Shown: positions 8,936 through 39,285, counted from the stretch's first letter. The stretch is DNA of 64,000 nt from an uncultured bacterium (GCA_963710755.1 CAVQBK010000003.1:211605-275604), one strand, 5' to 3'. Notes: generated from the letters alone by a model not told the origin. Numbers and translations are program-made.

Positions 8936-8940
8936 ATTCG

Positions 8941-23026: not shown

Positions 23027-23031
23027 TTCAA

Positions 23032-24164: not shown

Positions 24165-24252
24165 ATTATGCCAATCCTTCGGTTTAAGGTCAAGGTTTTT
24201 ATGTGGCTAACTTTCTGTTTGCTAATTTTCTGCAAGGAATTAGATTACTGCC

Positions 24253-24733: not shown

Positions 24734-24772
24734 CCGTATTTCCGGCGCATTTTTTAAAGAAAGGGGCAAACC

Positions 24773-26269: not shown

Positions 26270-26350
26270 TTCCTGCTGGGCATATGTGGATATGGGACGA
26301 ACCTAACTAATGATTCCTGAGAAGTAAGTACCTTTTTTGAAGTCGAATAA

Positions 26351-26569
26351 GTTCTAGGGGACGTTAACAACATAACAACTTAATAGACAGTTCCAAATAA
26401 ATGCAGTTATAATTACACCATGCCACGACAAAAACGACTGAATTTACCAGGGTAACAGACATTTAAGTGAGCGCCAAAGAACAAGCGGTATCGAAATGGT
26501 TCGAAAAAGGAAGGGAGATTTGTGAACGAAAAAATATAAAGTTGTTAAGTTGTTAACGTCCCGTAGAAC
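26351..26569. mobile_element. MITE-like non-autonomous element, copy A (~219 bp, 21-bp TIRs GTTCTAGGGGACGTTAACAAC / GTTGTTAACGTCCCGTAGAAC)
   Basis: Near-identical copies at 37354-37572 and 38987-39204 in the opposite orientation. Terminal inverted repeats seen directly. No coding capacity. Confidence 0.7.
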
Positions 26570-26570
26570 A

Positions 26571-26710
26571 CTTTCTTTCGCCTAGCTGCAGCCCTTGAGG
26601 TGTCGCCGGACAAGTTCATGAAATTATTGGCCAAACAACTGGAAGCGGATCATAAGGGATTTGATTGGAAGAAACTCATGGAAAAAGATAAGTGGGTGGA
26701 GCGGGGTTGA
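26571..26710 (+). pseudogene. 3' fragment of an XRE-family regulator gene (third, truncated copy)
   Basis: Matches 24427-24564 of XRE copy 1 with a few substitutions. Starts 2 bp after the right TIR of MITE copy A, so the 5' part and the partner gene are missing. Confidence 0.65.
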
Positions 26711-26734
26711 TGGGGGGATAATTTCTTTGCTGGT

Positions 26735-27637
26735 TCAAACAAAATATCCGTCTTTCTTTAAAAACCGCTCATGTTTTTTCCTGTTACAATAAGGTGCATA
26801 AATTATTCCATCCCACTTCCATATTTTTTGATCATTAAATATAATGTCTATATTCATAGTTGTGTTTAATATTTTCTCCCACAGGTTTTTATAGGGATTA
26901 ATGCACAACGAAGATTGAAAGCAATCTTTTGCAGTACAAGTATTGTTAGCCGTATATTCATCAAAAGACTTCGAAACGATCCCCCCGATTATATCTATTA
27001 TTTTGATCGCTCTAGCTTCATCTGAATATTTTTCTGATTTTTTGGGAATAAAATAAGGGCCGCCCAGTATTACTTTTTTTTCTCGCGCCAAATCATGAAT
27101 CTGTACCTTGATTTTATCCTGATACTTACGGTCATTAATATCAATGAACCAATCCACTTTGGGGTTATTGAACAAATATGATCCTGGCTGATGGAAATTA
27201 AGTTTTTTTACAAAAGGAAATATTCTTTTAAATCCATATAAATAACCATTTTGTGCATGCCCGGCTATTATTGCTTTGTCTGTCAATTTTTGTCCGCATT
27301 CTACTTCTGATTTATTTAGAATATAAAAACCTAGAAGGCAAATATAGTCTCTGTTATTTCCCGATAAAAGCTCCGTAACAAAACCCTCAAGGGCACAAGG
27401 ATCGTCTTTAGCGACTTTCTTTAACTCAGACCATTTTCGCAAACGGGATTTAAGATATTTTCTTGAGCAGGAGCGGGCGATTTCAATGAATTTCTTCATC
27501 GATTCTTCGCCGGGAAAGCACGCCATTGAAATGATGTAATTTCTTGTGGCTCCAGAATAGGTTGTTCCCAAACATCCTGATTCATCGGAGATAACGATGA
27601 GTCGCAACTTTTTACCCCAAAAAAATAGCCCCGTCAT
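26735..27637 (-). CDS. DUF3800-family protein (AT-rich, 300 aa)
   Basis: N-terminal LRLIVISDESGCLG fits the DUF3800 hhYhDESG start. Strongly AT-rich compared with surrounding DNA. Confidence 0.45.
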   Translation of the reverse strand: MTGLFFWGKKLRLIVISDESGCLGTTYSGATRNYIISMACFPGEESMKKFIEIARSCSRKYLKSRLRKWSELKKVAKDDPCALEGFVTELLSGNNRDYICLLGFYILNKSEVECGQKLTDKAIIAGHAQNGYLYGFKRIFPFVKKLNFHQPGSYLFNNPKVDWFIDINDRKYQDKIKVQIHDLAREKKVILGGPYFIPKKSEKYSDEARAIKIIDIIGGIVSKSFDEYTANNTCTAKDCFQSSLCINPYKNLWEKILNTTMNIDIIFNDQKIWKWDGIIYAPYCNRKKHERFLKKDGYFV

Positions 27638-27827
27638 ACCCTCTCAAAGAGAGGTGAGTTCTCGACAAGGGCGAGAACCGACGGGGCTAATATAGGACAC
27701 CAATAATTTCTAAATAGAGTATATCTCAGCTTTTTATTGCCTACAAGTATAATTTTAAAGTTTTTATGATCCCCTTAAATTATCGGCATAATATTGCTGA
27801 TCCTAAATTTAATATGCCTATTCCCTT

Positions 27828-28115
27828 TTATCTTGTCCCGTTTTTTAATCTCTTCACTTCTTCCACCACCGCCATCTCTATGACCGCCCGCAAGCTCCAC
27901 ACAATCTCATTGACCATGGTTAGATCCATCTTCTCCGGGCAGGCCGCCACGGGCTTGGCCTCCATCATACATGTGTACTCTCCGGCCCAATGAAAGATAG
28001 GAATCTCCTTGAGCAGGATACGGTTGTCAATGGTCACCCGGGCTATGCCGATAATAGCGGATAAGTTCGAAGTGCTGGGGTAGATGGTGATGGAGAGATT
28101 GGGGGAGTGGGGCAT
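27828..28115 (-). CDS. Small conserved hypothetical protein (copy 2; paralog of 23847-24164)
   Basis: 95 aa. Nucleotide identity to copy 1 runs from ~27826 through the start codon (6 substitutions). Confidence 0.5.
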   Translation of the reverse strand: MPHSPNLSITIYPSTSNLSAIIGIARVTIDNRILLKEIPIFHWAGEYTCMMEAKPVAACPEKMDLTMVNEIVWSLRAVIEMAVVEEVKRLKNGTR

Positions 28116-28236
28116 AAAAATCTTCCTTTTGTTACTAATTTGCTACCAAGAGTATATCCAATTCATAAAAGGAGATCAAGCCAATTGTACATAACTTGCC
28201 ATTTACTTATTTTCTACAAACCTCTAATGTTGCCCT

Positions 28237-28548
28237 ATGCCTTCAAAATCTAAAGAGAAAAATATAATCCAAGTTACCTTAGGTCATATTATAAGGGACT
28301 TACGCTACAAGCTTCACCTTACTCAAGAACAGTTGGCCGAACGGGCTAGTGTAAACCGTTCCTATATTGCTGATCTTGAATTAGGCGGACGCAACATGGC
28401 CTTTCGCAATATTCTACGGCTATCCGTCGCCCTGGAAATCACGCCAGATAAATTATTCAAATTGCTTCTCAAACGACTTGAAACAGATCAAAAAGGATTT
28501 GATTTGAAGAAGTTTATGGAAAAAGATAAGTGGGTGGAGAGAGGGTAA
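28237..28548 (+). CDS. XRE-family HTH transcriptional regulator, copy 2 (diverged)
   Basis: 103 aa, ~60% identical to copy 1 over the HTH but with an identical last 11 codons and identical downstream tail. Confidence 0.7.
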   Translation: MPSKSKEKNIIQVTLGHIIRDLRYKLHLTQEQLAERASVNRSYIADLELGGRNMAFRNILRLSVALEITPDKLFKLLLKRLETDQKGFDLKKFMEKDKWVERG

Positions 28549-28628
28549 AGGTAGGTATCAAAATAACAGCATGTATTTCCCCTCGCCCCGTGCCAGCGGG
28601 GAGAGGTTGGGTGAGGGGCCCACTACAC

Positions 28629-28691
28629 TCCTCCCCCAGGAAAAGTCACGTATCAGGTGGATACCGTCTCTGTACACAATAGGTAATTAAG
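28629..28691. repeat. R2 repeat (copy 3, degenerate)
   Basis: CTCCTCCCCCAGGAAAAGTC... aligns with the 5' part of the other R2 copies and ends ...GGTAATTAAG. Confidence 0.4.
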
Positions 28692-28724
28692 CAAGACCGT
28701 CCCCTTTATACAAAAGAAAAATGC

Positions 28725-28931
28725 TTGGATATGGTCTTGAAAGCGTTAGAAACGATGGAGCAAGGGGATAGAAATCTCGTTGTCCAGGAATTATTAGATC
28801 TATTGCAGAACAATGAATTTAAAGATTCCACATGGGCTAAAAGTGATCAAAAACGATTTAAAAAAGAGCTTGAAAAGTTCAGATGGTGTCGCCGGTTGCT
28901 TGGGATATTAGAAACGAAAATAAAAGAATGA
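28725..28931 (+). CDS. Small helical hypothetical protein (68 aa)
   Basis: ORF in the AT-rich spacer upstream of the STAND gene. No homology recognised. Could be non-coding. Confidence 0.25.
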   Translation: MDMVLKALETMEQGDRNLVVQELLDLLQNNEFKDSTWAKSDQKRFKKELEKFRWCRRLLGILETKIKE

Positions 28932-29028
28932 TTCTGATATAAAAAACTATATGACAATATATCGACATCCATCCCGCCATTAGCCACGGAAATGCGCATT
29001 TCAGTAACTATAACAGTGTGGTCGCCTA

Positions 29029-32000
29029 TTAGGAGGCCAACCGAACTTCGCGAAATGCCTCGCTAAGCTGAAGCGCTGCACTTCGCCTGTCGCCCATGTC
29101 GACTAGAATGTCGAGAATCCGCAGGAACTTCTGAGCAAGAGCCATTTTCATGGGCGTATCACGATGTGCGAAGTACTGAACAAGCTCCGCAATACGTGCC
29201 GGAATGAACGTTCCATGCCAACCCTTTAGGTTGTCGGGTCCGTTATTAATAATCGAGAGCACTTGGTCCGCGAAGGCTTCTGTTGGATAGTTTGCCCTTG
29301 CTCGTTCACAGAGCGTCAAAAATGGGGCCATCACAGAAGCGGCCCATCCGCTGGCGCGAACGAATCGATTGATCAGGGGTAGGATACGGTCAATTTCTGA
29401 CCAGTCACCATTGACGTAGCGAGCAGCTAAGTCCGCGCCTTCGACGGAGACAAACATTAAAGTGCGAACAAGATCAGGCTGATCGAAACCTGTGAGTTCA
29501 CCACTCCGGTAAGTGTCGCGTTTGAAAACGGAATCCTGTAAAAGACGTTCAAGACACAGGTTCAGCATCACGATTGCATCGGCTGGAACGACCGGCGCAT
29601 CGTACACATAGGCGCAGACATAAGTACTCGCGAAGGGGGAAAGGAGAGCCCAGCAATTGTCGCCTTTGAGGTTCAGAATCGGGTCGAGGAAGCGGGTTTG
29701 AAAGTCGGCAAGCGGGATAAAACCAGCCACCTGGCCCAGCCGCGATCCAAGCGTATGCGTCCACTCGAAAATCTGGGTTGATGATTTATTTCGGCGTCCA
29801 GGCTTCACCCATGCTGGCTCATTCTTTTGATTGGTCCAGTCGAGAACACCAGCGAGGAAATCGAGAAGTGAGTTCATTGCGCTACTTTGCAGAACCTTAT
29901 CAAAGGGGATGTGCTTAAGAATTTTTGCTGCCTGCTTGGAATGCCAAATAACGTTTGGTTCACCCCATGCCTCAGCTGCGTCGGTAGCATCATCAGCATC
30001 GATATCTTCATAGCTTTGATGCCCACGTCGGCTCTTTCCTTGTTCGACTTTCACCCAGGCTGGAGGCGGTAACGGAAGGGAAGCCCATCCGCTTCCATTC
30101 TCGTAGAACTCAAGCGCCGCATCGATCGCCGCTTGCGCTTCACTCATCGAATGGAGTGCTTCATTGTGTTGACGGGCCTGGCTGCGCGGCCGTAGTGGGA
30201 CGTGACAGAGCGAAAATGCTAAGACCAGCGCCGCCCAAGTCAATCTGGGATCCTTGGACCAAAGCTTACACGATTCTTCAAGCGCGGCTAATGAAACAAT
30301 CTCCAATGGGTGCGCAATCAGCCCAAGAAGGTCGCGAATCGCACCGCGTTCCGCTGTACTTTCGCGGATATCCGCTGCGATGCCGCGCGCCACGTAGATC
30401 GCCTGATGCCATGGGATAATGGAACTGGGAGACTGCATCAAATCGGGCTTTTCTGGCAGAAGGATAGCACGTTTTAATACATCACGAGCCCACTTGAGAT
30501 CTTCTTGACTACACCCTTTTCGAAATGTGAGCGCGATGGCAGCGGTGGCGGCAACTGCACCTCGACGTATACCCAACTGCACTTCTTCGTTCTCATCTTT
30601 CGGTTGTTTGAATAAATCGTTGGCGTCAGCTTCTCTGGCCATTGCAATGGCATCTTGAATATCGTAACTGTCGTTGAGTCCCTTCTTTTCAAATGACTTG
30701 CACGCCCACGTCCACAAGCTGGTCAGATTAAGATATTTAGTTGCCTCTTCGACCCTGGCGATATTTTCAGGTTCAGCATCGGAAGGACTAACGTGGACAA
30801 TTGTTAGCTGGTCTGAATCCTTTTCCGTGCGGTAGGCCTGATAGTTGTGCGGGTCTGTAAACTCGGCATATTTAATGGCTTGTTCCATGAGGTGTTTCCT
30901 TACCTCTGGAATATTGCGCTGCTCCTCGTACTGAAAAGGCAAATTATTCTTGAAATCGAGAATCGCATTGCGGGTTTGGTTACGGATCGGTCCTGTCGCA
31001 AAAACAAACATAGGCACCATCCAACTAAGCTGCTTTTTGCGAACCGGCCTGGCATTTGCTGCTTGGATCGCATCAACGTGAGGTTTATCGGTGCGAGATG
31101 TAAAACCTATTAGATTAGTAGTCGGAGCAATATCTTGCTCCCATCGATGTTGGTCGGCAGCTAGCAAACGTTGTGAGATGAAGAGTGGCAATGTCGTTTC
31201 GGACACAGTTTCGGTATTGAGCGCAAGCATTGCCGCAATGCCTAGGATGGCGATGCATTCGTTTCCCTCTATGATTTGCTGGATTATCTCATCAACGGGC
31301 CGACCACGCTCAAGCTCGGTGAAGCACCATTCTTCGAGTGCCATAAACCCGCAGCCGATGGCATTGGGCGCCCATGTAGAACGAAACCAAAGATACTCCC
31401 GGTCAGTACCCCAGAATTTCTGGGTACCCCAGGGAAACCTCAGTTCAAGCGGTATAGGTGTGCCGGGGGGATTTTCATGATATCGTGAATAACAATGTAG
31501 TTGTCGCCACGCGGTCATCGCGTGATTGCATAGTTCCCGAAGGAGTCTCAAAGCCTCGGCGGGTGAAAACTTAAAAAGTGAGTAAAAGGGCTCTCGAAGC
31601 GGTGAAGGAGGCAAGAAACTTTGATGGTCATCGTGGATCGATAGCCTTTCACAGTCGTGGAAACTAAAATCACCTATGGCTCGCAGAGAATGTCCGAACG
31701 AAAGTGACATTTGTTCTTGGCGCGTGCGCTCAGCTTTCGGCTTGGCAAGGACTGTTTTGCGCCACTCGGCCGCACGATGAAGTTCCTGTCTTTCGCGGGC
31801 GACTTGCTCGTCTGGTAGTTCCTCTCGCAGGAACGCCAATGAAAGTTCGACGACCGACTGAGGGAGTGATTGGGCGAGGACAGGTGAGTAGACGATGATG
31901 TCGTGAAAAGCGTCGTCACGGATACGCTCTGAGTTGGCCACCCGCTGCAAGTAGTCGGCGGCAAAGATCGGCTCAGATCTCGACGATTTTAAGAGGAGTT

Positions 32001-34365
32001 GAGAGAGGGATTTTTGAAAGCCACCGGGGTCGGGCATGGTGGCGAGCCAGGTGGCGCATTGCTGCAGCAGAGCGCGAGACGTTGGATTGGGCAAATCTGC
32101 AAGTGCATTTTGCCAGACCTCGAAGATAGCGACGATCTCCGGATAGAGCCTCTGCGGTATATCCGAAATGCGTCTGAGGATAAAGTTGATGAGGCGACGC
32201 CACGCGGCGAAGTCGGAAGGCCAACCGAGAAGATCAGCGAATCGTTGGCGTTGATCCGGTGGAAGCGCACCAGCGAGGATGTTCGCATTCGGAGTGGTCT
32301 TTTCAGCTTGAAACCAGACAAGCACCTTTCTGAAAAGCCGGAAGTCGTCGGCAAAGATGGCCGTCGCAAACTGGTCCTCATCAGCTTCGAACTTCGCAGT
32401 TCCGAGGGGACCGACTAGCCAAGCACGCAGCCATTGTGATCTAAGGTCCGAACCCTCGGTTTTGGCGAGGTAGGCGCACCATTCTTTTCCCTGTGTGTAC
32501 TCCCATTGGGAAGAGAGTTCGACGACGCGCGCGACCGCTGGCGGCTCCCCGGAAGCCTTAATCTCTTCCATCCATTGGGCCCCGCGATCAGCCAAGACAT
32601 AGAAAAAGGCCCATTCGAAGAAGATATCGTGGGCGAAGCGGACGGATATCCCTTCACGAGCATTTTGGAGTATGCCATCTGATCTTAGGTCATCGATGTG
32701 TGCGACTGAAGTGAGCTGGCTAAGGCAAATCGGCTGGCTAAGATTGCGAGCACGAACAGAAGCTAAATTGAGCAGCGCTCGCTGGCGTTCAATTGCGTCT
32801 TGTCCATTCTCATTATAACCGCCCCGCTGCCACCAATTCTCGATCAAATCTACTTCAGATTGAGGAGCGAATGTCGGGGCGCCGGGGTCGGCTACGTAAC
32901 TTTGGTTTAGCACTTTCGCAAAAAAGGGTCGTCGGACAATCTCTTTCACCTGGGGTAATCCAAACAGAAGTGGTCTCAGGTGTGGTTTGGCTTTTGCGAG
33001 TAGCTCAGCCTCTTCGTCGCTCAGCTGATCAACGCTAAGCGTCTCGACATTCAGGACATCAAGGAACTCGCCTAACCAATTGCGAAGAACTTCAATACCG
33101 GTGTTGCGAAGGGAGACGACGGTTCGCCAGTTGTCAAGCAGCGGTGACTCCACAATGGTGCGGATTACGTCGAGAATGATGGGCTGATGCTCCTTCTCAA
33201 TACGATCGATTGCATCGATGAACAAAATGGAAGTGCCAGATGCTCCGATCTCAACGAGAAGTTGCTCCAAGGGAGCACCAGAGAGACCCTGCGAAGTCGC
33301 ATAACTGATCCAACTGGTGCCTTCGAGCTGTTCGGCTTTGAGGAAGAAAACTGGCCCGCGTACTAGCGCGCGCTCTACCGCTCGCCTCACTACGACTGAT
33401 TTGCCACTTCCCGGCAGGCCGCGAACCTGGACAACACGGGCTGTAGTTAGCTTGGCGTCCAGGTCTCCTAGGAGCGAGGCTCGGTCGAGCTTTGATCCGC
33501 CAACATCGTCAGGAATGAGGTTTGTGTAACTCTTTGTGAGTTCCGTTAATCTGTCGAGATCAAGACGCAAGGAGGTCGCGCCGCGAAAGCGTACCACAGG
33601 GGAGATCATGCGCACAAGCCGCGCGCGGTCAAACTGGCCCGATTTGCCTGCTGAAGCGCGGGCTAACTGAACGATCTTTGACCAAACGAAGGGTGCCTTG
33701 GCTGCGTCATCGGGCACGAGGCAATCTCCGATGCGATTAATTGCATCCGGGGGATCAGTGGCGCCTTCACGAAGGAAATCGAATTGGATCAGAACGAAGT
33801 GCGCAAGGAACCGATGCACTTCTTCATTTGTGCACGGCGCCCCCTTTGCATCTTCCATCAGAGCAACTACGTTGTTCTTGACTGTTTTGAGCTCAGCACT
33901 AGCGCCGCCATCCTTCGCAAAGCGAGCGTTAAAATGATCCGCGGTCAGACTTTCACGGGCCCAATCGCAAAGGGTTTTAAGCGCTCGTTCTTTGGCGGGG
34001 GTAACCGTGCCAACTGCTGACCCGTAGCGGTCGACGTTGATGCGGAAGTCAGCTTTTTTGAGGGTAGCCCAACTGTTGCGGATAATGTCGCGAAAGTCGG
34101 TGTTAGTTTCCGCCTTGCTTATTGTGAGCGAACGCTTCACCTGGAGGCTAAGGCGAGCGGGTTTCTTTGCTGCATCTTCAAAATCAACAATCACATCATC
34201 GAGCGGTTCGCCGAAGTCGCGCTGTTGAACCGACACGCGAACAACGGTTCGATCATCAATGCCGGGTGCATATGCTTCGGCTAGAAGCGCGGTGAGATAG
34301 AACGCGGCCGCGTCACCCTCAAAGGTAAAACCTTCACCGCCGGCGAGTTCAGTTGATTGTGGCAT
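29029..34365 (-). CDS. Giant STAND-type P-loop NTPase with N-terminal Cap4-like (DUF4297) nuclease-like domain and ~1350-aa helical C-terminal region; putative Avs/bNACHT-like antiviral sensor-effector (1778 aa)
   Basis: N-terminus GGEGFTFEGDAAAFYLTALL...DDVIVDFED...LSLQVKRS fits the DUF4297 GGxGFxFQ start plus a D...(D/E)xK-like core. Walker A VRGLPGSGKSVV at aa ~306-313 and Walker B ILFIDAIDRIE at aa ~369-379. The long C-terminal region has no other catalytic motif. Confidence 0.6.
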   Translation of the reverse strand: MPQSTELAGGEGFTFEGDAAAFYLTALLAEAYAPGIDDRTVVRVSVQQRDFGEPLDDVIVDFEDAAKKPARLSLQVKRSLTISKAETNTDFRDIIRNSWATLKKADFRINVDRYGSAVGTVTPAKERALKTLCDWARESLTADHFNARFAKDGGASAELKTVKNNVVALMEDAKGAPCTNEEVHRFLAHFVLIQFDFLREGATDPPDAINRIGDCLVPDDAAKAPFVWSKIVQLARASAGKSGQFDRARLVRMISPVVRFRGATSLRLDLDRLTELTKSYTNLIPDDVGGSKLDRASLLGDLDAKLTTARVVQVRGLPGSGKSVVVRRAVERALVRGPVFFLKAEQLEGTSWISYATSQGLSGAPLEQLLVEIGASGTSILFIDAIDRIEKEHQPIILDVIRTIVESPLLDNWRTVVSLRNTGIEVLRNWLGEFLDVLNVETLSVDQLSDEEAELLAKAKPHLRPLLFGLPQVKEIVRRPFFAKVLNQSYVADPGAPTFAPQSEVDLIENWWQRGGYNENGQDAIERQRALLNLASVRARNLSQPICLSQLTSVAHIDDLRSDGILQNAREGISVRFAHDIFFEWAFFYVLADRGAQWMEEIKASGEPPAVARVVELSSQWEYTQGKEWCAYLAKTEGSDLRSQWLRAWLVGPLGTAKFEADEDQFATAIFADDFRLFRKVLVWFQAEKTTPNANILAGALPPDQRQRFADLLGWPSDFAAWRRLINFILRRISDIPQRLYPEIVAIFEVWQNALADLPNPTSRALLQQCATWLATMPDPGGFQKSLSQLLLKSSRSEPIFAADYLQRVANSERIRDDAFHDIIVYSPVLAQSLPQSVVELSLAFLREELPDEQVARERQELHRAAEWRKTVLAKPKAERTRQEQMSLSFGHSLRAIGDFSFHDCERLSIHDDHQSFLPPSPLREPFYSLFKFSPAEALRLLRELCNHAMTAWRQLHCYSRYHENPPGTPIPLELRFPWGTQKFWGTDREYLWFRSTWAPNAIGCGFMALEEWCFTELERGRPVDEIIQQIIEGNECIAILGIAAMLALNTETVSETTLPLFISQRLLAADQHRWEQDIAPTTNLIGFTSRTDKPHVDAIQAANARPVRKKQLSWMVPMFVFATGPIRNQTRNAILDFKNNLPFQYEEQRNIPEVRKHLMEQAIKYAEFTDPHNYQAYRTEKDSDQLTIVHVSPSDAEPENIARVEEATKYLNLTSLWTWACKSFEKKGLNDSYDIQDAIAMAREADANDLFKQPKDENEEVQLGIRRGAVAATAAIALTFRKGCSQEDLKWARDVLKRAILLPEKPDLMQSPSSIIPWHQAIYVARGIAADIRESTAERGAIRDLLGLIAHPLEIVSLAALEESCKLWSKDPRLTWAALVLAFSLCHVPLRPRSQARQHNEALHSMSEAQAAIDAALEFYENGSGWASLPLPPPAWVKVEQGKSRRGHQSYEDIDADDATDAAEAWGEPNVIWHSKQAAKILKHIPFDKVLQSSAMNSLLDFLAGVLDWTNQKNEPAWVKPGRRNKSSTQIFEWTHTLGSRLGQVAGFIPLADFQTRFLDPILNLKGDNCWALLSPFASTYVCAYVYDAPVVPADAIVMLNLCLERLLQDSVFKRDTYRSGELTGFDQPDLVRTLMFVSVEGADLAARYVNGDWSEIDRILPLINRFVRASGWAASVMAPFLTLCERARANYPTEAFADQVLSIINNGPDNLKGWHGTFIPARIAELVQYFAHRDTPMKMALAQKFLRILDILVDMGDRRSAALQLSEAFREVRLAS

Positions 34366-34788
34366 CGCTAGCCTGCATTAATGCTTTAATCATTTTCCGT
34401 TTCCCCATAACAACTTTTTAACCTACCTATAACGTTGGAATAATAAAGCTTTCCCGGTTTGCATTGAGCATAGTTTTTATCACCCTTATATACTATGAAA
34501 CCGTTTTTTACCAAGATTTTATTGAATTTTCCAATGAAATTAACTCCACCCTTGAGCAGCCTCAAGTACCAGCGGCAAATAGCAGTCCAGGTGTGGTAAA
34601 TAAAAGCTGGTAGCTTATAAAATACCCCCCCCTATTTCCATTGCTATCTCCTCGACTCTATGGCCCTATGTGCCTGAGTGGGAGAGGAGAGGGTAATCCG
34701 ATGAAACAAACCCTTTTAAACTAGGGGACGTTGGTTCTTAGGATGCAATACGATTGCTAAAGCCTTCGCCTTTTAATACAATTAAAAC

Positions 34789-34971
34789 ATGCCAAGACAA
34801 GCTCGCCTAGACATACCAGGTGCCCTCCACCATAGCATGATCCGGGGGACCAATAAGTCTGCTGTTTTTAAAAGCAAGCAAGATAAACTCTGCTTCCTCG
34901 AATGTCTCGGTGATAAAATAGTGCGGGTTAAGGCAATTAAAGCAGCGGCGGAGTGGAAGGAAGCTCGTTGA
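34789..34971 (+). pseudogene. N-terminal fragment of an IS200-like Y1 (HuH) transposase gene
   Basis: MPRQARLDIPGALHHSMIRGTNKSAVF parallels the N-terminus of the minus-strand copy (MARQKRLSIPGAIYHIITRG). It loses homology after ~45 codons and runs antisense into the neighbouring fragment. Confidence 0.5.
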
Positions 34972-34980
34972 TATATAAAA

Positions 34981-35256
34981 TTAGTGGGAAGAGATGAAAC
35001 CAGGGCGTCGGCGCGGCAGTGTGGAATTCCGGTGCCAGCCGCCATCGCCTTTGGTTGGTCGCAGAAGTAAATGCACATGATTGCTCATCAGCGCCCAGCC
35101 ATAGCACTGGCAAGTGGTTTTTTCTAGAGCAAATGATAATCGTTCCAGAAATTCTCGTCGATCACGATCATCTTTGAATAGTGCCATCCCATTTAAACCG
35201 CGCGTGATGATGTGATAGATTGCACCTGGTATGCTTAATCGTTTTTGTCTGGCCAT
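34981..35256 (-). pseudogene. Truncated/frameshifted IS200-like Y1 transposase (RAYT-like; HuH motif HVHLLL present)
   Basis: MARQKRLSIPGAIYHIITRG...WALMSNHVHLLLRP, then the frame degenerates. A continuation ORF lies in another frame (34782-35078). Confidence 0.55.
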
Positions 35257-35403
35257 GTTTGGTTAGACCAGCGAATCCTAATTTCCTTCCAGTTTTTTGT
35301 TTTCATTAAGCTTATAAGCTTACTCCGGCCCCCAACCCCATTTCAACTCTGGACGCTCGATATTCGCGCTGTTTCATGAAACAAACAATGGGTTGTGTAT
35401 ATC

Positions 35404-35432
35404 TTGACAACCAATAGTGTCTGCGCCATAAT
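35404..35432 (+). promoter_or_regulatory. Sigma70-type promoter: TTGACA (35404-35409), 17-bp spacer, CATAAT (35427-35432)
   Basis: Consensus-like hexamers with ideal spacing, ~40 bp upstream of the ArsR-family gene start. Confidence 0.5.
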
Positions 35433-35439
35433 TAGATGG

Positions 35440-35455
35440 TTAGATAACTATCTAA
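35440..35455 (+). promoter_or_regulatory. Putative ArsR/SdpR operator: palindrome TTAGATA-AC-TATCTAA
   Basis: 7-2-7 perfect inverted repeat just downstream of the -10 and overlapping the predicted transcription start, a classic autorepressor arrangement. Confidence 0.5.
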
Positions 35456-35472
35456 CAACAAAAGGAGTGCGG

Positions 35473-35781
35473 ATGACAAAGAGCAATGCGTTTTTTCAAG
35501 CATTGGCCGACCCGACCCGGCGCCAGATTCTTAAATTGTTGCAGCACGCCGAGCAAACACCGGGCGAGCTGCTGGAGCATTTTGTTATGACCAAGCCGTC
35601 GTTGTCCCATCATTTGGATATTTTGAAAAAAGCGGATTTGGTGGAAACCCGGCGACAGGGGCAAAATATTTACTATTCTTTAAAGACCAGTGTATTTGAA
35701 GATGTGGTGGCTTTTTTGCTGGACTTCACGGGCAAACCAATAAGTAAAGCCGGCACACGCCGGCAAAAAAAGAAAGGTTGA
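35473..35781 (+). CDS. ArsR/SmtB-family transcriptional repressor (SdpR-like)
   Basis: ALADPTRRQILKLL...ELLEHFVMTKPSLSHHLDILKKADLV is the ArsR winged-HTH signature. RBS AAAGGAG 7 nt upstream of ATG 35473. The track ORF start at 35395 is overextended. Confidence 0.75.
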   Translation: MTKSNAFFQALADPTRRQILKLLQHAEQTPGELLEHFVMTKPSLSHHLDILKKADLVETRRQGQNIYYSLKTSVFEDVVAFLLDFTGKPISKAGTRRQKKKG

Positions 35782-35786
35782 GGAAC

Positions 35787-36440
35787 ATGTATACCATTGA
35801 ATGGAAAAAAGAGATTCCGGCTTTTGTTTTACTGGCCGTGGTGCTACTGGTGGTGGGGTTGATGTATCCGGCTTTACCCGAACGCCTGCCCATGCACTGG
35901 AACATCCAGGGTGAGGTGGACGGCTGGGTGGCCAAATCCTGGGGCAGTGTTTTCTGGATGCCCCTGATGTGCGTGGCCATGCATTTTCTTATGCTTTTTT
36001 TGCCGCTGATTGATCCCCGGAAAGAACGGTATGCCCAATTTTTACGCCCGTATCGTCAAATCCGGTATGGCTTGGTCATTTATTTGAGCTTGGTCTCCAT
36101 TCTGGTGCTGGTCGCAGCTATAATTCCGGCCATTCCGGTGCATTATATTATTGCCGGAACCGTATCCTTGCTCATGATTGTGATTGGAAATTATCTGGGC
36201 AAGTTGCGGCCGAACTGGTTTGTGGGCATCCGGCTGCCGTGGACTCTGGAGAATGAGGAAGTCTGGATACGCACGCACCGCTTGGGCGGCAAGCTGTTTG
36301 TGCTGGTGGGCATTATGGGTCTGATCGGACTTTTCTTCAAGCCCGTGGTTACCTTTGCGCTATTCTTTGGAAGCTTGTTGGTAACATTGGTTATTGTAGT
36401 GGTGTATGCGTTTCAATTGTATCGGAAGTTGAGTGGGTGA
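35787..36440 (+). CDS. SdpI/YhfL-family membrane protein (DUF1648 plus SdpI immunity-like domain)
   Basis: Polytopic. NWFVGIRLPWTLENEEVW matches the SdpI-family NxxxGxRxxWTL..EEvW motif. ATG 35787 has a GAGGA RBS; the track start TTG at 35778 is less likely. Confidence 0.65.
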   Translation: MYTIEWKKEIPAFVLLAVVLLVVGLMYPALPERLPMHWNIQGEVDGWVAKSWGSVFWMPLMCVAMHFLMLFLPLIDPRKERYAQFLRPYRQIRYGLVIYLSLVSILVLVAAIIPAIPVHYIIAGTVSLLMIVIGNYLGKLRPNWFVGIRLPWTLENEEVWIRTHRLGGKLFVLVGIMGLIGLFFKPVVTFALFFGSLLVTLVIVVVYAFQLYRKLSG

Positions 36441-36513
36441 TTATTTAATCTATTTCTATGCTTTTTCTGCGAAGGCAATGGGACAGGCAAGGGGACACCT
36501 ATAATTTAATAAC

Positions 36514-36692
36514 TATTCTCCATCGATGATAATAGGAAGCAAAGATGGGTTTTCCTTGATTATCTGTGCACCTTGCCGGAATAACCTGCTGGCGGCAGGC
36601 TGACTGATACCCAGCCGATCGGCCAATGCTGTTTGCCGTTCGTGCTGATAGTCGCATGCCAAATAAATGGCCAAACTCCGGGCTTTCGCCAT
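36514..36692 (-). pseudogene. C-terminal fragment of a Y1 transposase-like gene with DnaA-C-like HTH
   Basis: Minus-strand translation MAKARSLAIYLACDYQHERQTALADRLGISQPAASRLFRQGAQIIKENPSLLPII resembles the C-terminal HTH tail of IS200-like proteins of the MARQARLDIPGALHH family. Isolated, with no upstream catalytic part. Confidence 0.4.
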
Positions 36693-36774
36693 GTTTCGCG
36701 ATGATCTGCCTTTTCTATTTAGAGAAAAAAGTGGCTGGCACCGATTTCGCTACTCCTTGAGTAAAAAATCTAAT

Positions 36775-37077
36775 TTACTCAAACCAACTGGTCAGGAAAT
36801 CTTGGCATTTATGAAGCTTAAATTCTGTAATTCGATATTCTTGAATGCCTGCTTTCACCAATGGATCATCATTACAAAATTTCTCAATGTCTTCACATTT
36901 TACTATAATTATCCCTCCTCCAGCACCAACTTTGGGACCAGAGACAAGCACTGATCCGTCTTTAAACCCAATATCAAGATATTCTAGATGTGCCTTAATC
37001 GCTTTTTCCATTTCTTTTTGTACAGGAAGGTTTTCTACGAATGAACCTTCCAATGTGTAATATTTATTTCCGTTCAT
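36775..37077 (-). CDS. YciI-like protein (Dabb fold)
   Basis: 100 aa. ...DGSVLVSGPKVGAGGGIIIVKCEDIEKFCNDDPLVKAGIQEYRITEF is typical of the YciI family. AT-rich. Confidence 0.55.
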   Translation of the reverse strand: MNGNKYYTLEGSFVENLPVQKEMEKAIKAHLEYLDIGFKDGSVLVSGPKVGAGGGIIIVKCEDIEKFCNDDPLVKAGIQEYRITEFKLHKCQDFLTSWFE

Positions 37078-37353
37078 TGATTTCCTTCCAATATTCTTAA
37101 TGTATTAGAATTGCTCTGCTAATTTCTGCATATTGCCTATAACGTTCCTGGCACATACGATGTTGCGTCTGACACTTGAAGTTACATTATCCTTTTAGCT
37201 TTTTTAAAGCAACAAATTTTTTGACCTAAATCAAGCAAGCAATATGGCGTAGCCCAAGCGACCGCAGGGCGCGCAGCGTTATGTGCCGTGTTGAACTAAA
37301 CCTTCGGTAATAAAATTATTGCGTAGATTCATTGACTACCTATCATGATATGT

Positions 37354-37572
37354 GTTCTACGGGACGTTAACAACTTAACAACTTTATATTTTTTCGTTCA
37401 CAAATCTCCCTTCCTTTTTCGAACCATTTCGATACCGCTTGTTCTTTGGCGCTCACTTAAATGTCTGTCACCCTGGTAAATTCAGTCGTTTTTGTCGTGG
37501 CATGGTGTAATTATAACTGCATTTATTTGGAACTGTCTATTAAGTTGTTATGTTGTTAACGTCCCCTAGAAC
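37354..37572. mobile_element. MITE-like element, copy B (inverted relative to copy A)
   Basis: Reverse complement of copy A with TIRs GTTCTACGGGACGTTAACAAC / GTTGTTAACGTCCCCTAGAAC. Confidence 0.7.
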
Positions 37573-37726
37573 TAACGTTCTATTCCCAGACTTTTTCTTT
37601 TTTCATTTCACTTTTTTACAAAAAAAGGACATGCCTATAGTTTCAAGTTAGACATGTCCCCTAATCTTATCCAAAATAAAAACCCACCCGACTAGCTTTA
37701 GGTGGGTTAATTAAAATGCTCTATTA

Positions 37727-38092
37727 TTAACTCTGAAAATAATGTTTATATTTTTTCGGCAACGCTTTTGATTTCGCGCCACCTTTTTTAATCTTTGAAA
37801 CTAATTTTTCAGAGGCATCTGGTTTCCTAATATGGCTTTTATTTGCTGACCAAGCTAAAATATCAGATAGTAATTCTTCTTTTACTCGAATATAATTCAC
37901 AAAGGATTTCTTTTTTACAAACGGATGTTCACCCGGTTCAATTATACAAGAACGGTCACATGGCCTATCTTCGCGTACTGTCGAAAGACTCACAAGTAAA
38001 CAATGTGTCTCGTTATTACAAACAACGAAAAACAGATGATGGGAAGAAGGACTGTCAGTAGGGATTAAAAAAGCAGCACCAATTAATGACAT
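37727..38092 (-). CDS. Hypothetical protein, candidate toxin partner of the Panacea-domain antitoxin (121 aa)
   Basis: Overlaps the upstream Panacea gene by 10 nt in an AT-rich context. Ends Lys-rich. No family recognised. Confidence 0.35.
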   Translation of the reverse strand: MSLIGAAFLIPTDSPSSHHLFFVVCNNETHCLLVSLSTVREDRPCDRSCIIEPGEHPFVKKKSFVNYIRVKEELLSDILAWSANKSHIRKPDASEKLVSKIKKGGAKSKALPKKYKHYFQS

Positions 38093-38640
38093 TCCAAAAA
38101 TTGCTTTGCTTTATTAAAGCGGTGAATGTCCTTTTCAATTTCTTTTATAACTTGTGTGGATTTCCCAACGGCTCTAAAAATATCTTCGATTTCAATGGGT
38201 TTTGATGAACCTTCGGGGTCTTGCCACTCTTTTAAATACCTATGACAGTATTTTTCAATTTGCCACTGATTAAAATGCCTAAACTTGTGTGAAACTTTTT
38301 CTATTAGCTCTATCTCTCTTTCGCTTAACTCTCCATCCTCACATTCATTATGAGCGGAAACGTTATAATTATTCCGCACTATATGTTTATGCCAATAGGA
38401 GTCTTCCCCTGGTTTTGGTTTATAATTAATAGTATCCAATATTTCACTTACAACTGGACCATGAGGCAATGAAAAATACCTGTCACAAGTAATAGGTGCT
38501 TCCCATTTTTTCAAAGCTTCCCTGTCTGCAATATATAGAAGCTTGATTAGCTTCATATAGTTAATACGCCCACCTTCTTTTTTAATAAAATGGCAGGCTG
38601 CTTGTGTTGCTTTTTTAATATCAAACTCGAATTGGATCAT
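38083..38640 (-). CDS. Panacea-domain (DUF4065, SocA-like) putative antitoxin
   Basis: N-terminal MKLIKLLYIADREALKKWEAPITCDRYFSLPHGPVVSEI matches the Panacea core (KLxKLLYxADRE...GxPxxx..Y.A...GPV). Confidence 0.6.
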   Translation of the reverse strand: MIQFEFDIKKATQAACHFIKKEGGRINYMKLIKLLYIADREALKKWEAPITCDRYFSLPHGPVVSEILDTINYKPKPGEDSYWHKHIVRNNYNVSAHNECEDGELSEREIELIEKVSHKFRHFNQWQIEKYCHRYLKEWQDPEGSSKPIEIEDIFRAVGKSTQVIKEIEKDIHRFNKAKQFLECH

Positions 38641-38986
38641 TTTAACCGCCCCTTATTTACCCGAATTCGGCCCAATTTCTAGTGAATTCGCCTACACTTT
38701 CATAATAGTTTCGTCTCAATAGTTGATATTGTTTAGACCCTGATTTGACTTTAAATACCGCTTAAGCGGTATTTAACTATATAGAAGTATAGCATACGCC
38801 CCGATATAAACACAACATATTGTCCAGCTCACCCAAGTTGCCTAAAGCCATTTGTCGTATCCAACCAGTATTAAACCCTTATAAATCAACGGTTTTCCCT
38901 CATCCAGAGTGCGCCTTCTCGACGCTATCCATCATGTCATCCTTTTTTGAATTCTCGCCCCTGAAGGTTCTGCACTGTAATGTTGG

Positions 38987-39204
38987 TTCTAGGGGACGTT
39001 AACAACTTAACAACTTTATATTTTTCCGTTCACAAATCTCCCTTCCTTTTTCGAACCATTTCGATACCGCTTGTTCTTTGGCGCTCACTTAAATGTCTGT
39101 CACCCTGGTAAATTCAGTCGTTTTTGTCGTGGCATGGCGTAATTATAACTGCATTTATTTGGAACTGTCTATTAAGTTGTTATGTTGTTAACGTCCCCTA
39201 GAAC
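38987..39204. mobile_element. MITE-like element, copy C (same orientation as copy B)
   Basis: Near-identical to copy B. TIRs GTTCTAGGGGACGTTAACAAC / GTTGTTAACGTCCCCTAGAAC. Confidence 0.7.
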
Positions 39205-39285
39205 ACAGACCCGGGTATCCGGGACGAGCCTAACTGATTAACTTAAGCTTCTTGTTCCCCACTATTTCCACGCCCTCGCCGGCTC

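What the first reader, a model, noticed from the sequence alone, without database searches (positions are those of the whole stretch)
26351..39204. Novel ~220-bp MITE family with 21-bp terminal inverted repeats: three full copies plus end fragments
Copies A (26351-26569), B (37354-37572) and C (38987-39204) are near-identical, flanked by GTTCTA(G/C)GGGACGTTAACAAC inverted termini, and have no coding capacity. Copy A is inverted relative to B and C. Related terminal sequences (GTTAACGTCC...GTTGAC) also end the R2 repeats at 23026 and 24733. Copy A directly truncates an XRE gene copy. The element is evidently mobile in, or recombinogenic for, this island, but no cognate transposase is present in the window.
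Basis: seen in the sequence. Interest (0 to 1): 0.55.

Follow-up and report, generated by a model that had tools for sequence, protein, structure and literature searches.

The report
Miniature deletion derivative of a tyrosine-transposase element
The three 219-bp repeats are real and are shrunken, gene-less copies of a small mobile element that normally carries a single-strand-DNA "Y1" tyrosine transposase gene (the TIRYT / RAYT group 1 family). This explains their inverted ends and their lack of target-site duplications; the kind of element is already described, and only this particular family is new.

Summary
Copies A (26351-26569), B (37354-37572) and C (38986-39204) are each 219 bp and differ at 1-4 positions. 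Their terminal inverted repeats (TIRs) extend to 35 bp, and their flanks are unrelated right at the boundaries.

The element is a real MITE, but not a classical DDE-transposase one. Its interior consists of the two ends of a gene: a promoter plus the first 11 codons (MPRQKRLNLPG), joined to the last ~29 codons. That gene encodes a 335-aa protein with a Y1/HUH transposase domain and a C-terminal helix-turn-helix.

In a metagenome contig (L006) the intact gene sits between the same ends (GGGGACGTTAACAACATAACAACTTAAT). The protein family is very large. It corresponds to the published TIRYT/"TIRtron" elements, also called TnpA-Y1 subclass 2.1 or RAYT group 1.

A fourth full copy and a truncated fifth lie on other contigs with different flanks. 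All full copies share one deletion junction, so the mini-element spread after the deletion. No target-site duplications (TSDs) occur, as expected for Y1 enzymes.

The surrounding toxin-antitoxin island also holds about nine further solo ends or gene fragments of related elements. No intact transposase is in the window.

Verdict: new member of a known kind, of moderate interest.

The parts
26351..26569 (+). Copy A of the 219-bp miniature element, with the remnant transposase gene reading on the + strand.
26351..26385 (+). Left TIR of copy A. It has the outer hexamer GTTCTA, the GGGGACG motif, two octamer subrepeats (TTAACAAC, ATAACAAC) and TTAAT.
   Evidence: I9. The alignment to L006, L012, L013 and L016 shows GGGGACG plus the subrepeats conserved.
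26384..26413 (+). Sigma-70-like promoter TAGACA-18-TATAAT abutting the left TIR. It is the remnant of the transposase gene promoter.
   Evidence: 11 of 12 matches. The same position holds TTGACA plus a -10 box in L006, L012 and L016.
26420..26455 (+). Remnant 5' coding end: ATG plus 10 codons (MPRQKRLNLPG) followed by a stop. The deletion junction lies at about 26453-26458.
   Evidence: tblastn of P0001 gives 11/11 identical residues; DNA alignment.
26467..26556 (+). Remnant 3' coding end (..EQAVSKWFEKGREICERKNIKLLSC*). The stop codon TAA at 26554-26556 lies inside GTTAAC of the right TIR.
   Evidence: tblastn gives 20/25 identical to the P0001 C-terminus; HMM positions 310-334; DNA alignment.
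26535..26569 (+). Right TIR of copy A.
   Evidence: I9.
37354..37572 (-). Copy B, with the gene remnant on the - strand. It differs from A at 1 nt. It lies 277 nt upstream of, and is co-oriented with, the YciI-like gene at 37077..36775.
38986..39204 (-). Copy C, with the gene remnant on the - strand. It differs from B at 3 nt. It lies 345 nt upstream of, and is co-oriented with, the SocA/Panacea operon at 38640..37727.
22993..23029 (-). Solo left-type end (AGGACGTTAACACCATAACAGCTTAAT) at the tip of repeat R2-1. It sits at the left border of the low-GC island, 3 nt from the HicB stop codon.
   Evidence: (D7, D9).
24700..24736 (-). Solo left-type end (GGGACGTTAACAACATAACAACTTAAT, 27/27 to the MITE left end) at the tip of repeat R2-2.
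26570..26713 (+). The last ~145 nt of an XRE gene copy, cut off by copy A. The 5' part of that gene is missing, so an adjacent deletion or rearrangement occurred.
   Evidence: (D2), 96% identical to 24423-24567.
34724..34968 (+). Remnant of a second, diverged TIRYT element. It has a left end (GGGGACGTTGG..) 65 nt upstream of ATG 34789, plus about 50 N-terminal codons.
   Evidence: E = 4.9e-11.
34984..35339 (-). Remnant of a third TIRYT element. It has about 69 N-terminal codons (54% identical to P0001). Its left TIR, GGGGGCCGGAGTAAGCTTATAAGCTTAAT, lies at 35305-35339.
   Evidence: E = 2.4e-31.
36491..36749 (-). Remnant of a fourth TIRYT element. It has a C-terminal HTH fragment plus a right end whose reverse complement reads GGGGACACCTATAATTTAAT. 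This fits the published GGGGWSAS motif.
   Evidence: E = 1.8e-7, HMM positions 272-329.
44359..44621 (-). Probable C-terminal remnant plus right end (GGGGACGCTCTTAACTAATCC) of a fifth TIRYT element. The evidence is weak.
   Evidence: E = 5.8, but at the expected HMM positions 299-332.
39221..39280 (-). A 60-nt right-end remnant homologous to 44360-44420. It lies 17 nt from copy C.
   Evidence: D13, 95%.
26294..26320 (+). GGGACGAACCTAACTAATG, a possible further degenerate end. It resembles the end at 39221 and lies about 30 nt from copy A.
   Evidence: The resemblance was judged by eye only.
28681..28705 (-). Degenerate end (GGGGACGGTCTTGCTTAATTACC) at the tip of the third, partial R2 repeat.

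Best explanation
The 219-bp unit is a non-autonomous miniature element. It arose by one internal deletion from a ~1.1-kb single-gene mobile element of the TIRYT/'TIRtron' kind. That kind is also called TnpA-Y1 subclass 2.1 or RAYT group 1.

The full element has three parts. A 26-35-bp TIR begins with GGGGACG and carries two tandem ~8-nt subrepeats. A sigma-70 promoter abuts the left TIR. The gene encodes a ~335-aa protein with an N-terminal Y1/HUH nuclease-ligase domain and a C-terminal DnaA-like helix-turn-helix, and its stop codon lies in the right TIR. The deletion removed codons 12 to about 306. It left both ends, the promoter and 11 codons.

Shown: the homology of both halves, the shared junction, and the dispersal to unrelated flanks without TSDs.

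Inferred: the mini-element was then copied to new sites in trans by a cognate TIRYT. This would use single-strand cleavage and ligation through the catalytic tyrosine, which leaves no target duplication. On single-stranded DNA the two ends of the mini-element can pair into a 35-bp stem. That would present both cleavage sites together, as a REPIN hairpin does for a RAYT. The HTH domain probably reads the octamer subrepeats.

The retained promoter may fire outward into neighbouring genes. The near-identical inverted copies A and B can also serve as substrates for homologous recombination.
For: 1. A protein search with the six-frame peptides of the element found P0001. This protein starts with the element's MPRQKRLNLPG and ends with ..AVSKWVEKGREICERENVNLLSC, against the element's ..AVSKWFEKGREICERKNIKLLSC.

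2. In L006 the P0001 gene is flanked by GGGGACGTTAACAACATAACAACTTAAT on the left, identical to the MITE over those 28 nt. On the right it is flanked by ..GTTAAGTTGTTAACGTCCC. The promoter and stop codon sit at the same positions.

3. P0001 matches Pfam Y1_Tnp (2e-13) and NCBIfam REP-associated tyrosine transposase (78.2 bits, cut-off 80). It carries the motifs NHFH and YIHLNP. Its AF2 model best matches TnpA-REP (4er8, E = 1e-6), then the ISDra2, IS608 and IS200 transposases. The C-terminal domain matches the DnaA DNA-binding domain.

4. All eight loci of family members that were examined, covering six distinct proteins, share one architecture: a GGGGACG-led TIR with two subrepeats, lying 34-36 nt before the ATG in seven loci and 83 nt in L007.

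5. Four full 219-bp copies (A, B, C, L002) share the same length and junction, carry 1-5 private substitutions, and have unrelated flanks. A truncated copy sits in L003. Logan unitigs of the same strain break inside the element.

6. No TSD is present at any copy. None is present either at the identical P0002 element, which occurs in two different contexts.

7. The 219-nt strand folds, as ssDNA, into a terminal 35-bp stem (-31.7 kcal/mol, z = -5.6).

8. The literature describes this family. Di Nocera 2013 (PMC3733652) reports RAYT-like genes flanked by TIRs with a GGGGWSAS motif, with TIR repeat families occurring as singles, dimers and groups. Quentin 2018 (PMC6006769) defines subclass 2.1. 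Bertels 2017 (PMC5581495) finds group 1 the most IS-like of the true RAYT groups.
Against: The immediate parent was not found. P0001 is only 80% identical over the 25-residue C-terminal remnant, and its element lacks the outer GTTCTA hexamer.

No intact TIRYT lies in the window. The rest of the 1.47-Mb source contig could not be searched.

Transposition by any TIRYT has never been shown experimentally. Most family members fetched here (P0064, P0015, P0094) sit at one conserved locus per genome, like domesticated genes.

Only five copies are known, three of them within 13 kb of a heavily rearranged island. Some spread by recombination cannot be excluded.

The ssDNA hairpin, the role of the HTH domain and the outward promoter activity are all inferences.
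Confidence: 0.82

Rival explanations
1. The element is a classical MITE, mobilised by a DDE transposase (for example the IS5, IS630 or IS1182 kind) that recognises the 21-35-bp TIRs by a cut-and-paste mechanism.
For: The element has long, near-perfect TIRs, a small size and no functional ORF. In L002 an IS1182/IS5-like transposase gene lies about 800 bp from the copy.
Against: No TSD of any length is present at four full copies. A CTAG or TA duplication is excluded because the C/G polymorphism at position 7 travels with the element to different loci. The interior is homologous to both ends of a Y1 transposase gene, and the intact gene is bounded by the same ends. BLAST found no match to the TIR at the L002 transposase.
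Confidence: 0.03
2. The copies are not transposed units. They are leftovers of segmental duplication, gene conversion or homologous recombination within a plastic island. On this reading the repeat is recombinogenic rather than mobile.
For: The island is full of duplicated modules: D1-D4, D13 and the R2 repeats. All three window copies lie within 13 kb. Copy A's flanks show a deletion or rearrangement, since the XRE 5' half is missing.
Against: Homology stops at exactly the same two nucleotides in four copies, and all eight flanks are unrelated. Further copies sit on other contigs, next to IS fragments and a membrane-protein gene that do not occur in the window.
Confidence: 0.07
3. The unit has been exapted as a functional cis-element. 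Candidates are a portable promoter or RNA hairpin that regulates neighbouring toxin-antitoxin genes, or a structured small-RNA gene. This is compatible with a transposon origin.
For: The element holds a conserved promoter-like site with 11 of 12 matches and no terminator. Copies B and C lie upstream of, and are co-oriented with, downstream genes. The RNA fold is strongly favourable (z about -7).
Against: There are no Rfam hits. The fold energy comes almost entirely from the TIR stem, and the interior shows no notable structure. Copy A faces only a gene fragment. Three copies are too few to test orientation bias or covariation.
Confidence: 0.1
4. The shared ~30-nt end is a site for a site-specific recombinase, like an integron attC site or a cassette boundary. 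The 219-bp unit would then be two such sites back to back.
For: Solo ends sit at module boundaries and at the border of the island. In L001 a solo end lies inside an array of attC-like palindromes.
Against: The end has tandem subrepeats, not the inverted R''/L''-L'/R' organisation of attC sites. The window has no integrase or other recombinase gene. Only eight such ends occur in the window, six of them in the MITE copies. The gene-remnant homology explains the whole unit.
Confidence: 0.03

Closest known systems
TIRtrons: TIRYT genes with their flanking TIRs and the derived TIR repeat families (Di Nocera et al. 2013, PMC3733652). Equivalent to TnpA-Y1 subclass 2.1 (Quentin et al. 2018, PMC6006769) and RAYT group 1 (Bertels et al. 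2017, PMC5581495).
   Same: The parent protein has the subclass 2.1 signatures: HuH motif NH[YF]H, Y motif Y[IV]HLNP and a C-terminal DnaA_C-like HTH. The gene is flanked by TIRs that begin with GGGG(A)(C), lie at a fixed distance from the gene, and overlap its 3' end. Repeats of the TIRs occur as 'dimers' and solos elsewhere in the genome.
   Different: The terminal motif here is GGGGACG(T/G), not the published GGGGWSAS. One remnant in the window, at 36491, does fit GGGGACAC. This mini-element retains recognisable 5' and 3' coding remnants and the promoter, so its origin by deletion is explicit. I found no description of such a derivative in the papers read. The MITE also carries an extra outer GTTCTA hexamer not seen in L006 or L012.
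REPINs, which are REP doublets mobilised by RAYTs of groups 2 and 3 (Bertels & Rainey 2011, PMC3116915)
   Same: Both have two inverted end sequences separated by a short spacer that can fold into a long hairpin on single-stranded DNA. Both lack TSDs, are non-autonomous, and are linked to a Y1/HUH protein related to IS200 transposases.
   Different: The arms here are not themselves palindromic REPs with a GTAG tag. The spacer is 149 bp and made of gene remnants. The known copy number is low (five known, against tens to hundreds). The related protein carries an extra HTH domain and belongs to a different RAYT group.
IS200/IS605 insertion sequences (IS608, ISDra2)
   Same: Both use the Y1/HUH transposase fold. 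Neither produces TSDs. Both are small elements.
   Different: IS200/IS605 elements have no TIRs. They use different subterminal hairpins at each end and insert 3' of a fixed tetra- or pentanucleotide. No conserved flanking nucleotide is seen here.
Bacterial MITEs derived from DDE insertion sequences (for example RUP, Correia/NEMIS, Nezha)
   Same: The size (about 220 bp), the TIRs, the lack of a transposase, the origin by internal deletion of an autonomous element, and the potential to carry promoters all match.
   Different: DDE-derived MITEs are flanked by TSDs of fixed length. This one has none, and its parent is not a DDE element.

Membership tests
MITE (generic definition) | Small size (under about 300-500 bp) and no transposase coding capacity | tested here: met
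   The element is 219 bp. Its longest internal ORFs are remnants: 11 codons followed by a stop, and a 29-codon tail.
MITE (generic definition) | Terminal inverted repeats | tested here: met
   The TIRs are 35 nt at 91-94% complementarity. The outer 21 nt are exact except for one polymorphic position.
MITE (generic definition) | Several copies at unrelated loci with sharp common boundaries | tested here: met
   Four full copies and one truncated copy have unrelated flanks, in the window and on two other contigs. The genome-wide copy number is unknown.
MITE (generic definition) | An autonomous relative with the same termini | tested here: met
   L006 has 28 nt of the left end identical, a homologous right end, and an intact 335-aa gene. 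It is a relative, not the immediate parent.
MITE (generic definition) | Target-site duplications | tested here: not met
   None of 1-10 bp is present at A, B, C or L002. This is expected if the mobilising enzyme is a Y1/HUH transposase.
TIRtron / TIRYT (TnpA-Y1 subclass 2.1, RAYT group 1); tested on the parent-like protein P0001 | Y1_Tnp core with the HuH motif NH[YF]H or NHVH and the Y motif Y[IV]HLNP | tested here: met
   Pfam PF01797 scores 2e-13. NHFH lies at residues 59-62 and YIHLNP at 119-124, and both are conserved in 17 homologues. The criteria come from Table 1 of PMC6006769.
TIRtron / TIRYT (TnpA-Y1 subclass 2.1, RAYT group 1) | A C-terminal extension with a helix-turn-helix (Bac_DnaA_C, HTH_23 or HTH_28) | tested here: met
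   In P0001 the matches to Bac_DnaA_C and HTH_3 are weak. PF08299 is precomputed on many homologues. The AF2 C-terminal domain matches the DnaA DNA-binding domain 3pvp (TM 0.71).
TIRtron / TIRYT (TnpA-Y1 subclass 2.1, RAYT group 1) | A gene flanked by long TIRs sharing the GGGGWSAS motif, with no REP hairpins | tested here: inconclusive
   TIRs of 26-30 bp are present in all 8 loci examined and all begin with GGG(G)ACG. The first six positions fit the motif, but positions 7-8 (G, then T or G) do not fit 'AS'. One window remnant reads GGGGACAC and fits fully.
TIRtron / TIRYT (TnpA-Y1 subclass 2.1, RAYT group 1) | NCBIfam REP-associated tyrosine transposase (NF047646) at its trusted cut-off | tested here: not met
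   The score is 78.2 bits against a cut-off of 80. This is just below threshold. That model is an equivalog for the short RAYTs.
REPIN | Two inverted REP units, each an imperfect palindrome with a GTAG (or similar) tag | tested here: not met
   Each arm contains only the 6-bp palindrome GTTAAC and tandem, not inverted, subrepeats. There is no conserved GTAG.
REPIN | High copy number and a cognate single-copy RAYT flanked by the same units | not testable with these tools
   The source genome (a 1.47-Mb contig) could not be searched.
IS200/IS605 | Distinct subterminal hairpins at the left and right ends, no TIRs, and insertion 3' of a fixed short target | tested here: not met
   Long TIRs are present, and the flanking nucleotides are not conserved.
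Integron attC site | An imperfect palindrome with an R''(RYYYAAC)-L''...L'-R'(GTTRRRY) organisation, 57-141 bp long, in an array of one orientation next to an intI gene | tested here: not met
   The end has direct subrepeats, the unit is 219 bp, copy A is inverted, and no integrase is in the window. The criteria are from my own knowledge.

The most novel reading that the evidence does not exclude
TIRYT/RAYT-group-1 proteins have no demonstrated activity and are often regarded as domesticated. On this reading they are active transposases that move any DNA bounded by their GGGGACG-led ends. This deletion derivative would be a caught-in-the-act intermediate on the path from an IS200-like insertion sequence to REPIN-type hairpin repeats. 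Beyond that, about a dozen TIRtron ends delimit toxin-antitoxin and defence modules in this 23-kb island, and none lie in the other 41 kb. This could mean that Y1-mediated end-to-end joining builds such islands, as a tyrosine-HUH analogue of cassette accretion.
Probability: 0.12. Interest if true: 0.7.

Novelty: new member of a known kind. Interest (0 to 1): 0.4.

Why it matters
The role of the very large TIRYT/RAYT-group-1 family is unresolved. At least 7994 relatives scored below E = 1e-10 in the search here, which scored only the 8000 candidates sharing most words. Nobody has shown that these proteins move DNA.

A mini-element made of nothing but the two ends of such a gene is good genomic evidence for movement. 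It has been copied with one shared deletion junction to several unrelated sites, without target duplications. This suggests that the ends are sufficient in cis and that a TIRYT can act in trans.

It also offers a compact 219-bp substrate for biochemical tests of how Y1 enzymes handle inverted-repeat ends, and for testing the proposed origin of REPINs.

Locally, the copies matter for annotation. They break short-read assemblies, they truncate an XRE gene, and they carry a promoter pointing into neighbouring toxin-antitoxin genes. The near-identical inverted pair A/B could invert the 10.8-kb segment between them.

Tried and rejected
1. Rfam gathering scan of the whole window: no hits.
2. BLASTN of the unit against plasmids and phages: nothing relevant.
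3. Exact-pattern scans of viral contigs with the TIR and with the 5' coding remnant: 0 hits.
4. The GTDB genome scan with the 22-nt end pattern found only one solo end, in an Elusimicrobiota MAG (L001), and not the source genome.
5. TSD search by eye and by script at all copies, including flank combinations expected after A/B inversion or B/C deletion: none. A 'CTAG' or 'TA' TSD with a palindromic target GTTCTAGAAC was rejected because the position-7 polymorphism is inherited across loci.
6. The integron attC idea, prompted by L001, was rejected on the anatomy of the ends.
7. The REP/GTAG idea was rejected because the arms are not palindromes.
8. A fuzzy search for further degenerate ends of this family in the window (up to 8 mismatches) found only the 8 known ends.
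9. Empty-site search through 90%-identity relatives of the flanking genes (YciI-like, Fic, XRE). Homology ends before the insertion sites, so the result is uninformative.
10. A profile search of the protein family against PDB sequences gave nothing at E ≤ 0.01. The fold search was needed instead.
11. Host identification failed. The best named CyoB hits are only 68% identical, to Spirochaetia MAGs, and no names are attached to the source contig.

Full report
**Observation.**

The three repeats exist as described. A is inverted relative to B and C. Each is 219 bp. In a common orientation they differ at 1 position (A/B), 3 (B/C) and 4 (A/C).

The 21-nt termini GTTCTA(G/C)GGGACGTTAACAAC occur at all six ends. 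With up to 3 mismatches allowed the pattern matches 7 times in the window, against 0 matches in 100 shuffles. The inverted repeat really extends to 35 nt (91-94% complementary). It contains a tandem subrepeat, (G)TTAACAAC-(A/T)TAACAAC (I8-I10).

Homology between copies stops abruptly at the outer G and C, and the flanks are unrelated. The solo ends on the two 85-nt R2 repeats (22993-23029, 24700-24736) are real. The last 145 nt of an XRE gene abut copy A at 96% identity to the gene at 24253-24564 (D2).

**Context.**

The window carries four main blocks:
- an extracellular contractile injection system locus;
- a cyo quinol-oxidase operon ending at 22844;
- a low-GC island from about 22.9 to 45.7 kb (44.6% GC against 55% on either side; the element itself is 38% GC);
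- carbonic anhydrase and Bat genes.

The island is a mosaic of toxin-antitoxin and defence-type genes. These include HicAB, three XRE modules, SocA/Panacea, three Fic genes, HepT/MNT and a 1778-aa ATPase. Many of them are duplicated. The window has no integrase, no DDE transposase, no tRNA and no Rfam family.

**What the element is.**

The decisive result came from using the element's six reading frames as a protein query. The single hit, P0001 (335 aa), begins with MPRQKRLNLPG. These are exactly the 11 codons that follow a promoter-like site in the element. P0001 ends with ..QQAVSKWVEKGREICERENVNLLSC. The element reads ..EQAVSKWFEKGREICERKNIKLLSC followed by a stop, which is 20 of 25 identical.

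On its contig (L006) the P0001 gene lies between the same ends. On the left is GGGGACGTTAACAACATAACAACTTAAT, identical to the element over 28 nt. This is followed by TTGACA-18-TATAAT and the ATG. On the right is ..AACTTGTTAAGTTGTTAACGTCCC, with the stop codon TAA inside GTTAAC.

The 219-bp unit is therefore the full element with codons 12 to about 306 deleted. The junction lies at about 26453-26458 in copy A. Everything in the unit is accounted for: TIR, promoter, 5' stub, 3' stub and TIR.

**The parent family.**

P0001 matches Pfam Y1_Tnp (2e-13). It scores 78.2 bits on NCBIfam 'REP-associated tyrosine transposase', just under the cut-off of 80. It has weak C-terminal helix-turn-helix matches.

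An alignment of 17 homologues shows the conserved HuH motif NH(F/V/I/L)H and the tyrosine motif YIHLNP. An AlphaFold model (pLDDT 77.6) matches best the REP-associated tyrosine transposase bound to a REP hairpin (4er8, E = 1e-6). The next best matches are the ISDra2, IS608 and IS200 transposases. The C-terminal domain matches the DnaA DNA-binding domain.

The family is very large. In the search, 7994 of the 8000 scored candidates had E below 1e-10, and most are 334 aa. Sources label them 'transposase' or 'REP element-mobilizing transposase RayT', in Elusimicrobiota, Chlamydiota, Desulfobacterota and others.

These features are those of TnpA-Y1 subclass 2.1 of Quentin et al. 2018: HuH NH[YF]H, Y motif Y[IV]HLNP, a C-terminal Bac_DnaA_C-like HTH, and no REPs. 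That paper equates the subclass with the TIRYTs of Di Nocera et al. 2013 and with RAYT group 1 of Bertels et al. 2017.

Di Nocera et al. described 'TIRtrons', which are RAYT-like genes flanked by long TIRs that often share GGGGWSAS. They noted that the TIRs of some form repeat families occurring as singles, dimers and groups.

I checked the architecture in eight fetched loci, which cover six distinct proteins. Every one has 26-30-bp TIRs beginning GGG(G)ACG followed by two tandem ~8-nt subrepeats. The left TIR lies 34-36 nt before the ATG (83 nt in L007), and the right TIR lies at or near the stop codon.

**Evidence for mobility.**

1. A scan of JGI metagenomes found a fourth full copy (L002, 219 bp, 2-5 differences from the window copies) and a 51-nt truncated copy (L003). 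The L003 copy abuts a 5'-truncated istB gene. Both have flanks that do not occur in the window.
2. Logan unitigs from run ERR11523667 reproduce window segments exactly and terminate inside the element. This is what a repeat does in an assembly graph.
3. All full copies share the same length and deletion junction but carry private substitutions. The deletion therefore happened once, and the mini-element multiplied afterwards.
4. The identical full-length P0002 element occurs in two different genomic contexts (L012/L014 and L013/L015).

No copy of either element has a target-site duplication. A hidden CTAG or TA duplication is excluded, because the C/G polymorphism at position 7 of one end is shared by copies at different loci and so travels with the element. 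Absence of duplications is the rule for Y1/HUH transposases (established for IS608 and ISDra2; my knowledge and PMC6006769).

**Mechanism.**

*Shown.* The ends, the promoter and the gene stubs are homologous to a TIRYT element, and dispersal occurred without TSDs.

*Inferred.* A cognate TIRYT acts in trans, cutting and rejoining single strands at the ends through its tyrosine. As single-stranded DNA the element folds into a 35-bp terminal stem (-31.7 kcal/mol, z = -5.6). This would bring both ends together much as a REPIN hairpin does. The interior adds little structure. The tandem octamers next to the -35 box are natural candidates for the HTH domain, serving end recognition and perhaps autoregulation.

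*Not settled.* Where exactly cleavage occurs is unknown. So is whether the extra outer hexamer GTTCTA belongs to the recognised end; it is absent from L006 and L012. It is also unknown whether the source genome still has an active TIRYT. The immediate parent is not in the 5.8-billion-protein collection in a form that keeps the same C-terminus. A more diverged helper could not be excluded.

**Local consequences.**

The retained promoter (TAGACA-18-TATAAT, 11 of 12 matches, with no terminator downstream) points out of the element. Copies B and C lie 277 and 345 nt upstream of, and are co-oriented with, the YciI-like gene and the SocA/Panacea operon. Copy A faces only the XRE fragment.

Copy A is associated with loss of the XRE 5' half, so a deletion or recombination occurred next to it. 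A and B differ by one base and are inverted, so they could invert the 10.8 kb between them. None of this could be tested here.

**The island as a graveyard of related elements.**

A family HMM run on the six-frame translation of the window found four further pieces:
- two N-terminal gene fragments, 34984-35262 on the minus strand (E = 2e-31) and 34786-34968 on the plus strand (E = 5e-11);
- a C-terminal fragment at 36516-36749 on the minus strand (E = 2e-7);
- a weak C-terminal fragment at 44376-44621.

Each fragment has an end of the family type at the expected distance. GGGGACGTTGG.. lies at 34724. GGGGGCCGGAGTAAGCTTATAAGCTT lies at 35305-35339. GGGGACACCTATAATTTAAT lies at 36491-36515. GGGGACGCTCTTAACTAATCC lies at 44359.

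Further end remnants lie at 39221-39280, 26294 and about 28700. Together with the MITE copies and the R2 solos, that makes about a dozen TIRtron ends in 23 kb of island, from at least five lineages. I saw none in the other 41 kb. Whether this reflects a target preference for existing ends, tolerance of the island to insertions, or a role in assembling it is open.

**Rivals.**

- A DDE-type MITE is contradicted by the absence of TSDs and by the gene-remnant homology.
- Pure segmental duplication is contradicted by the sharp common boundaries in eight unrelated flanks and by the copies on other contigs.
- A recombinase site or attC reading is contradicted by the anatomy of the ends and by the lack of a recombinase.
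- Exaptation as a promoter or RNA element is possible, but it is additional to the transposon origin rather than an alternative.

**Novelty and score.**

The kind of element (TIRYT genes, their TIRs and TIR repeat families) is published. This particular family and its host are new to the collections searched. The explicit deletion derivative that retains gene stubs is a neat, and as far as I could find undescribed, illustration. I file it as a new member of a known kind, with interest 0.4.

Noticed in passing
window 34724-36749: A two-gene ArsR-SdpI module (35395-36440, + strand) is bracketed by remnants of two different TIRYT elements. Both remnants lie on the minus strand. One is a right end with a C-terminal stub (36491-36749). 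The other is a left end with an N-terminal stub (34984-35339). A third N-terminal stub (34786-34968, + strand) converges on the latter.
   Followed up: partly
window 22942-23026, 24649-24733, 28593-28705: Three direct copies of an ~85-nt repeat (R2) end in a TIRtron-type left end. Two of them follow an XRE gene and a GC-rich hairpin (CCCCTCGCCCCGTGCCAGCGGGGAGAGGTTGGGTGAGGGG). The first copy marks the exact left border of the low-GC island, about 100 nt after the cyoE/UbiA gene.
   Followed up: partly
window 23845-24567 and 27826-28551; L042: The module of a 105/95-aa ORF (-) plus an XRE gene (+) is duplicated with mosaic identity: 98% over 290 nt, then 70% over the XRE gene. In another metagenome (L042) the same module, at 95.5% identity, sits next to an AbiEii gene instead of HicAB.
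   Followed up: partly
window 36753-37146; L031-L040: A ~400-bp unit holds a YciI-like gene (100 aa) with its upstream region and terminator. It is 90% identical to contigs from many metagenomes. Its 90%-identity protein cluster has 34 members, named from Williamwhitmania and Eubacteriaceae MAGs. Homology has sharp boundaries, and in the window the unit abuts the TIRYT C-terminal stub.
   Followed up: partly
L001 120-185, 1983-2046, 2205-2270, 2979-3038 and 1921-1955: An Elusimicrobiota MAG contig carries four ~66-nt imperfect palindromes (GCCCAAC...GTTGGGC), all in one orientation and each following a gene. This looks like an integron-type attC cassette array. A solo TIRtron left end, 27 nt identical to the MITE end, lies between an OLD-like ATPase gene and the next palindrome.
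   Followed up: partly
window 42732-42973 and 45324-45565: A 242-nt direct repeat (99% identical) covers most of two small ORFs (98 and 108 aa) that have no Pfam match. The two copies flank a Fic gene and the HepT/MNT pair.
   Followed up: no
window 5447-16442: This is an extracellular contractile injection system locus. It includes an AAA ATPase, Pvc16_N, a sheath protein and an eCIS core domain protein.
   Followed up: no
window 29029-34365 (-): A 1778-aa ORF has only weak AAA_16/AAA matches near residues 308-394. It is the largest gene between the inverted copies A and B.
   Followed up: no
window 52037-56758: Two large genes face outward (divergent: 446 aa on the - strand, 1078 aa on the + strand). 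They carry degenerate 36-66-nt internal repeats, and their repeat regions are about 70% inverted copies of each other (D6, D8, I3-I5).
   Followed up: no
L002 52-1779; L003 135-2642: The two metagenome contigs with further MITE copies are rich in other insertion-sequence genes. L002 has an IS1182/IS5-like transposase. L003 has a 5'-truncated istB gene cut exactly at the MITE end, and an IS66-family transposase. These family assignments are by eye from the translations.
   Followed up: no
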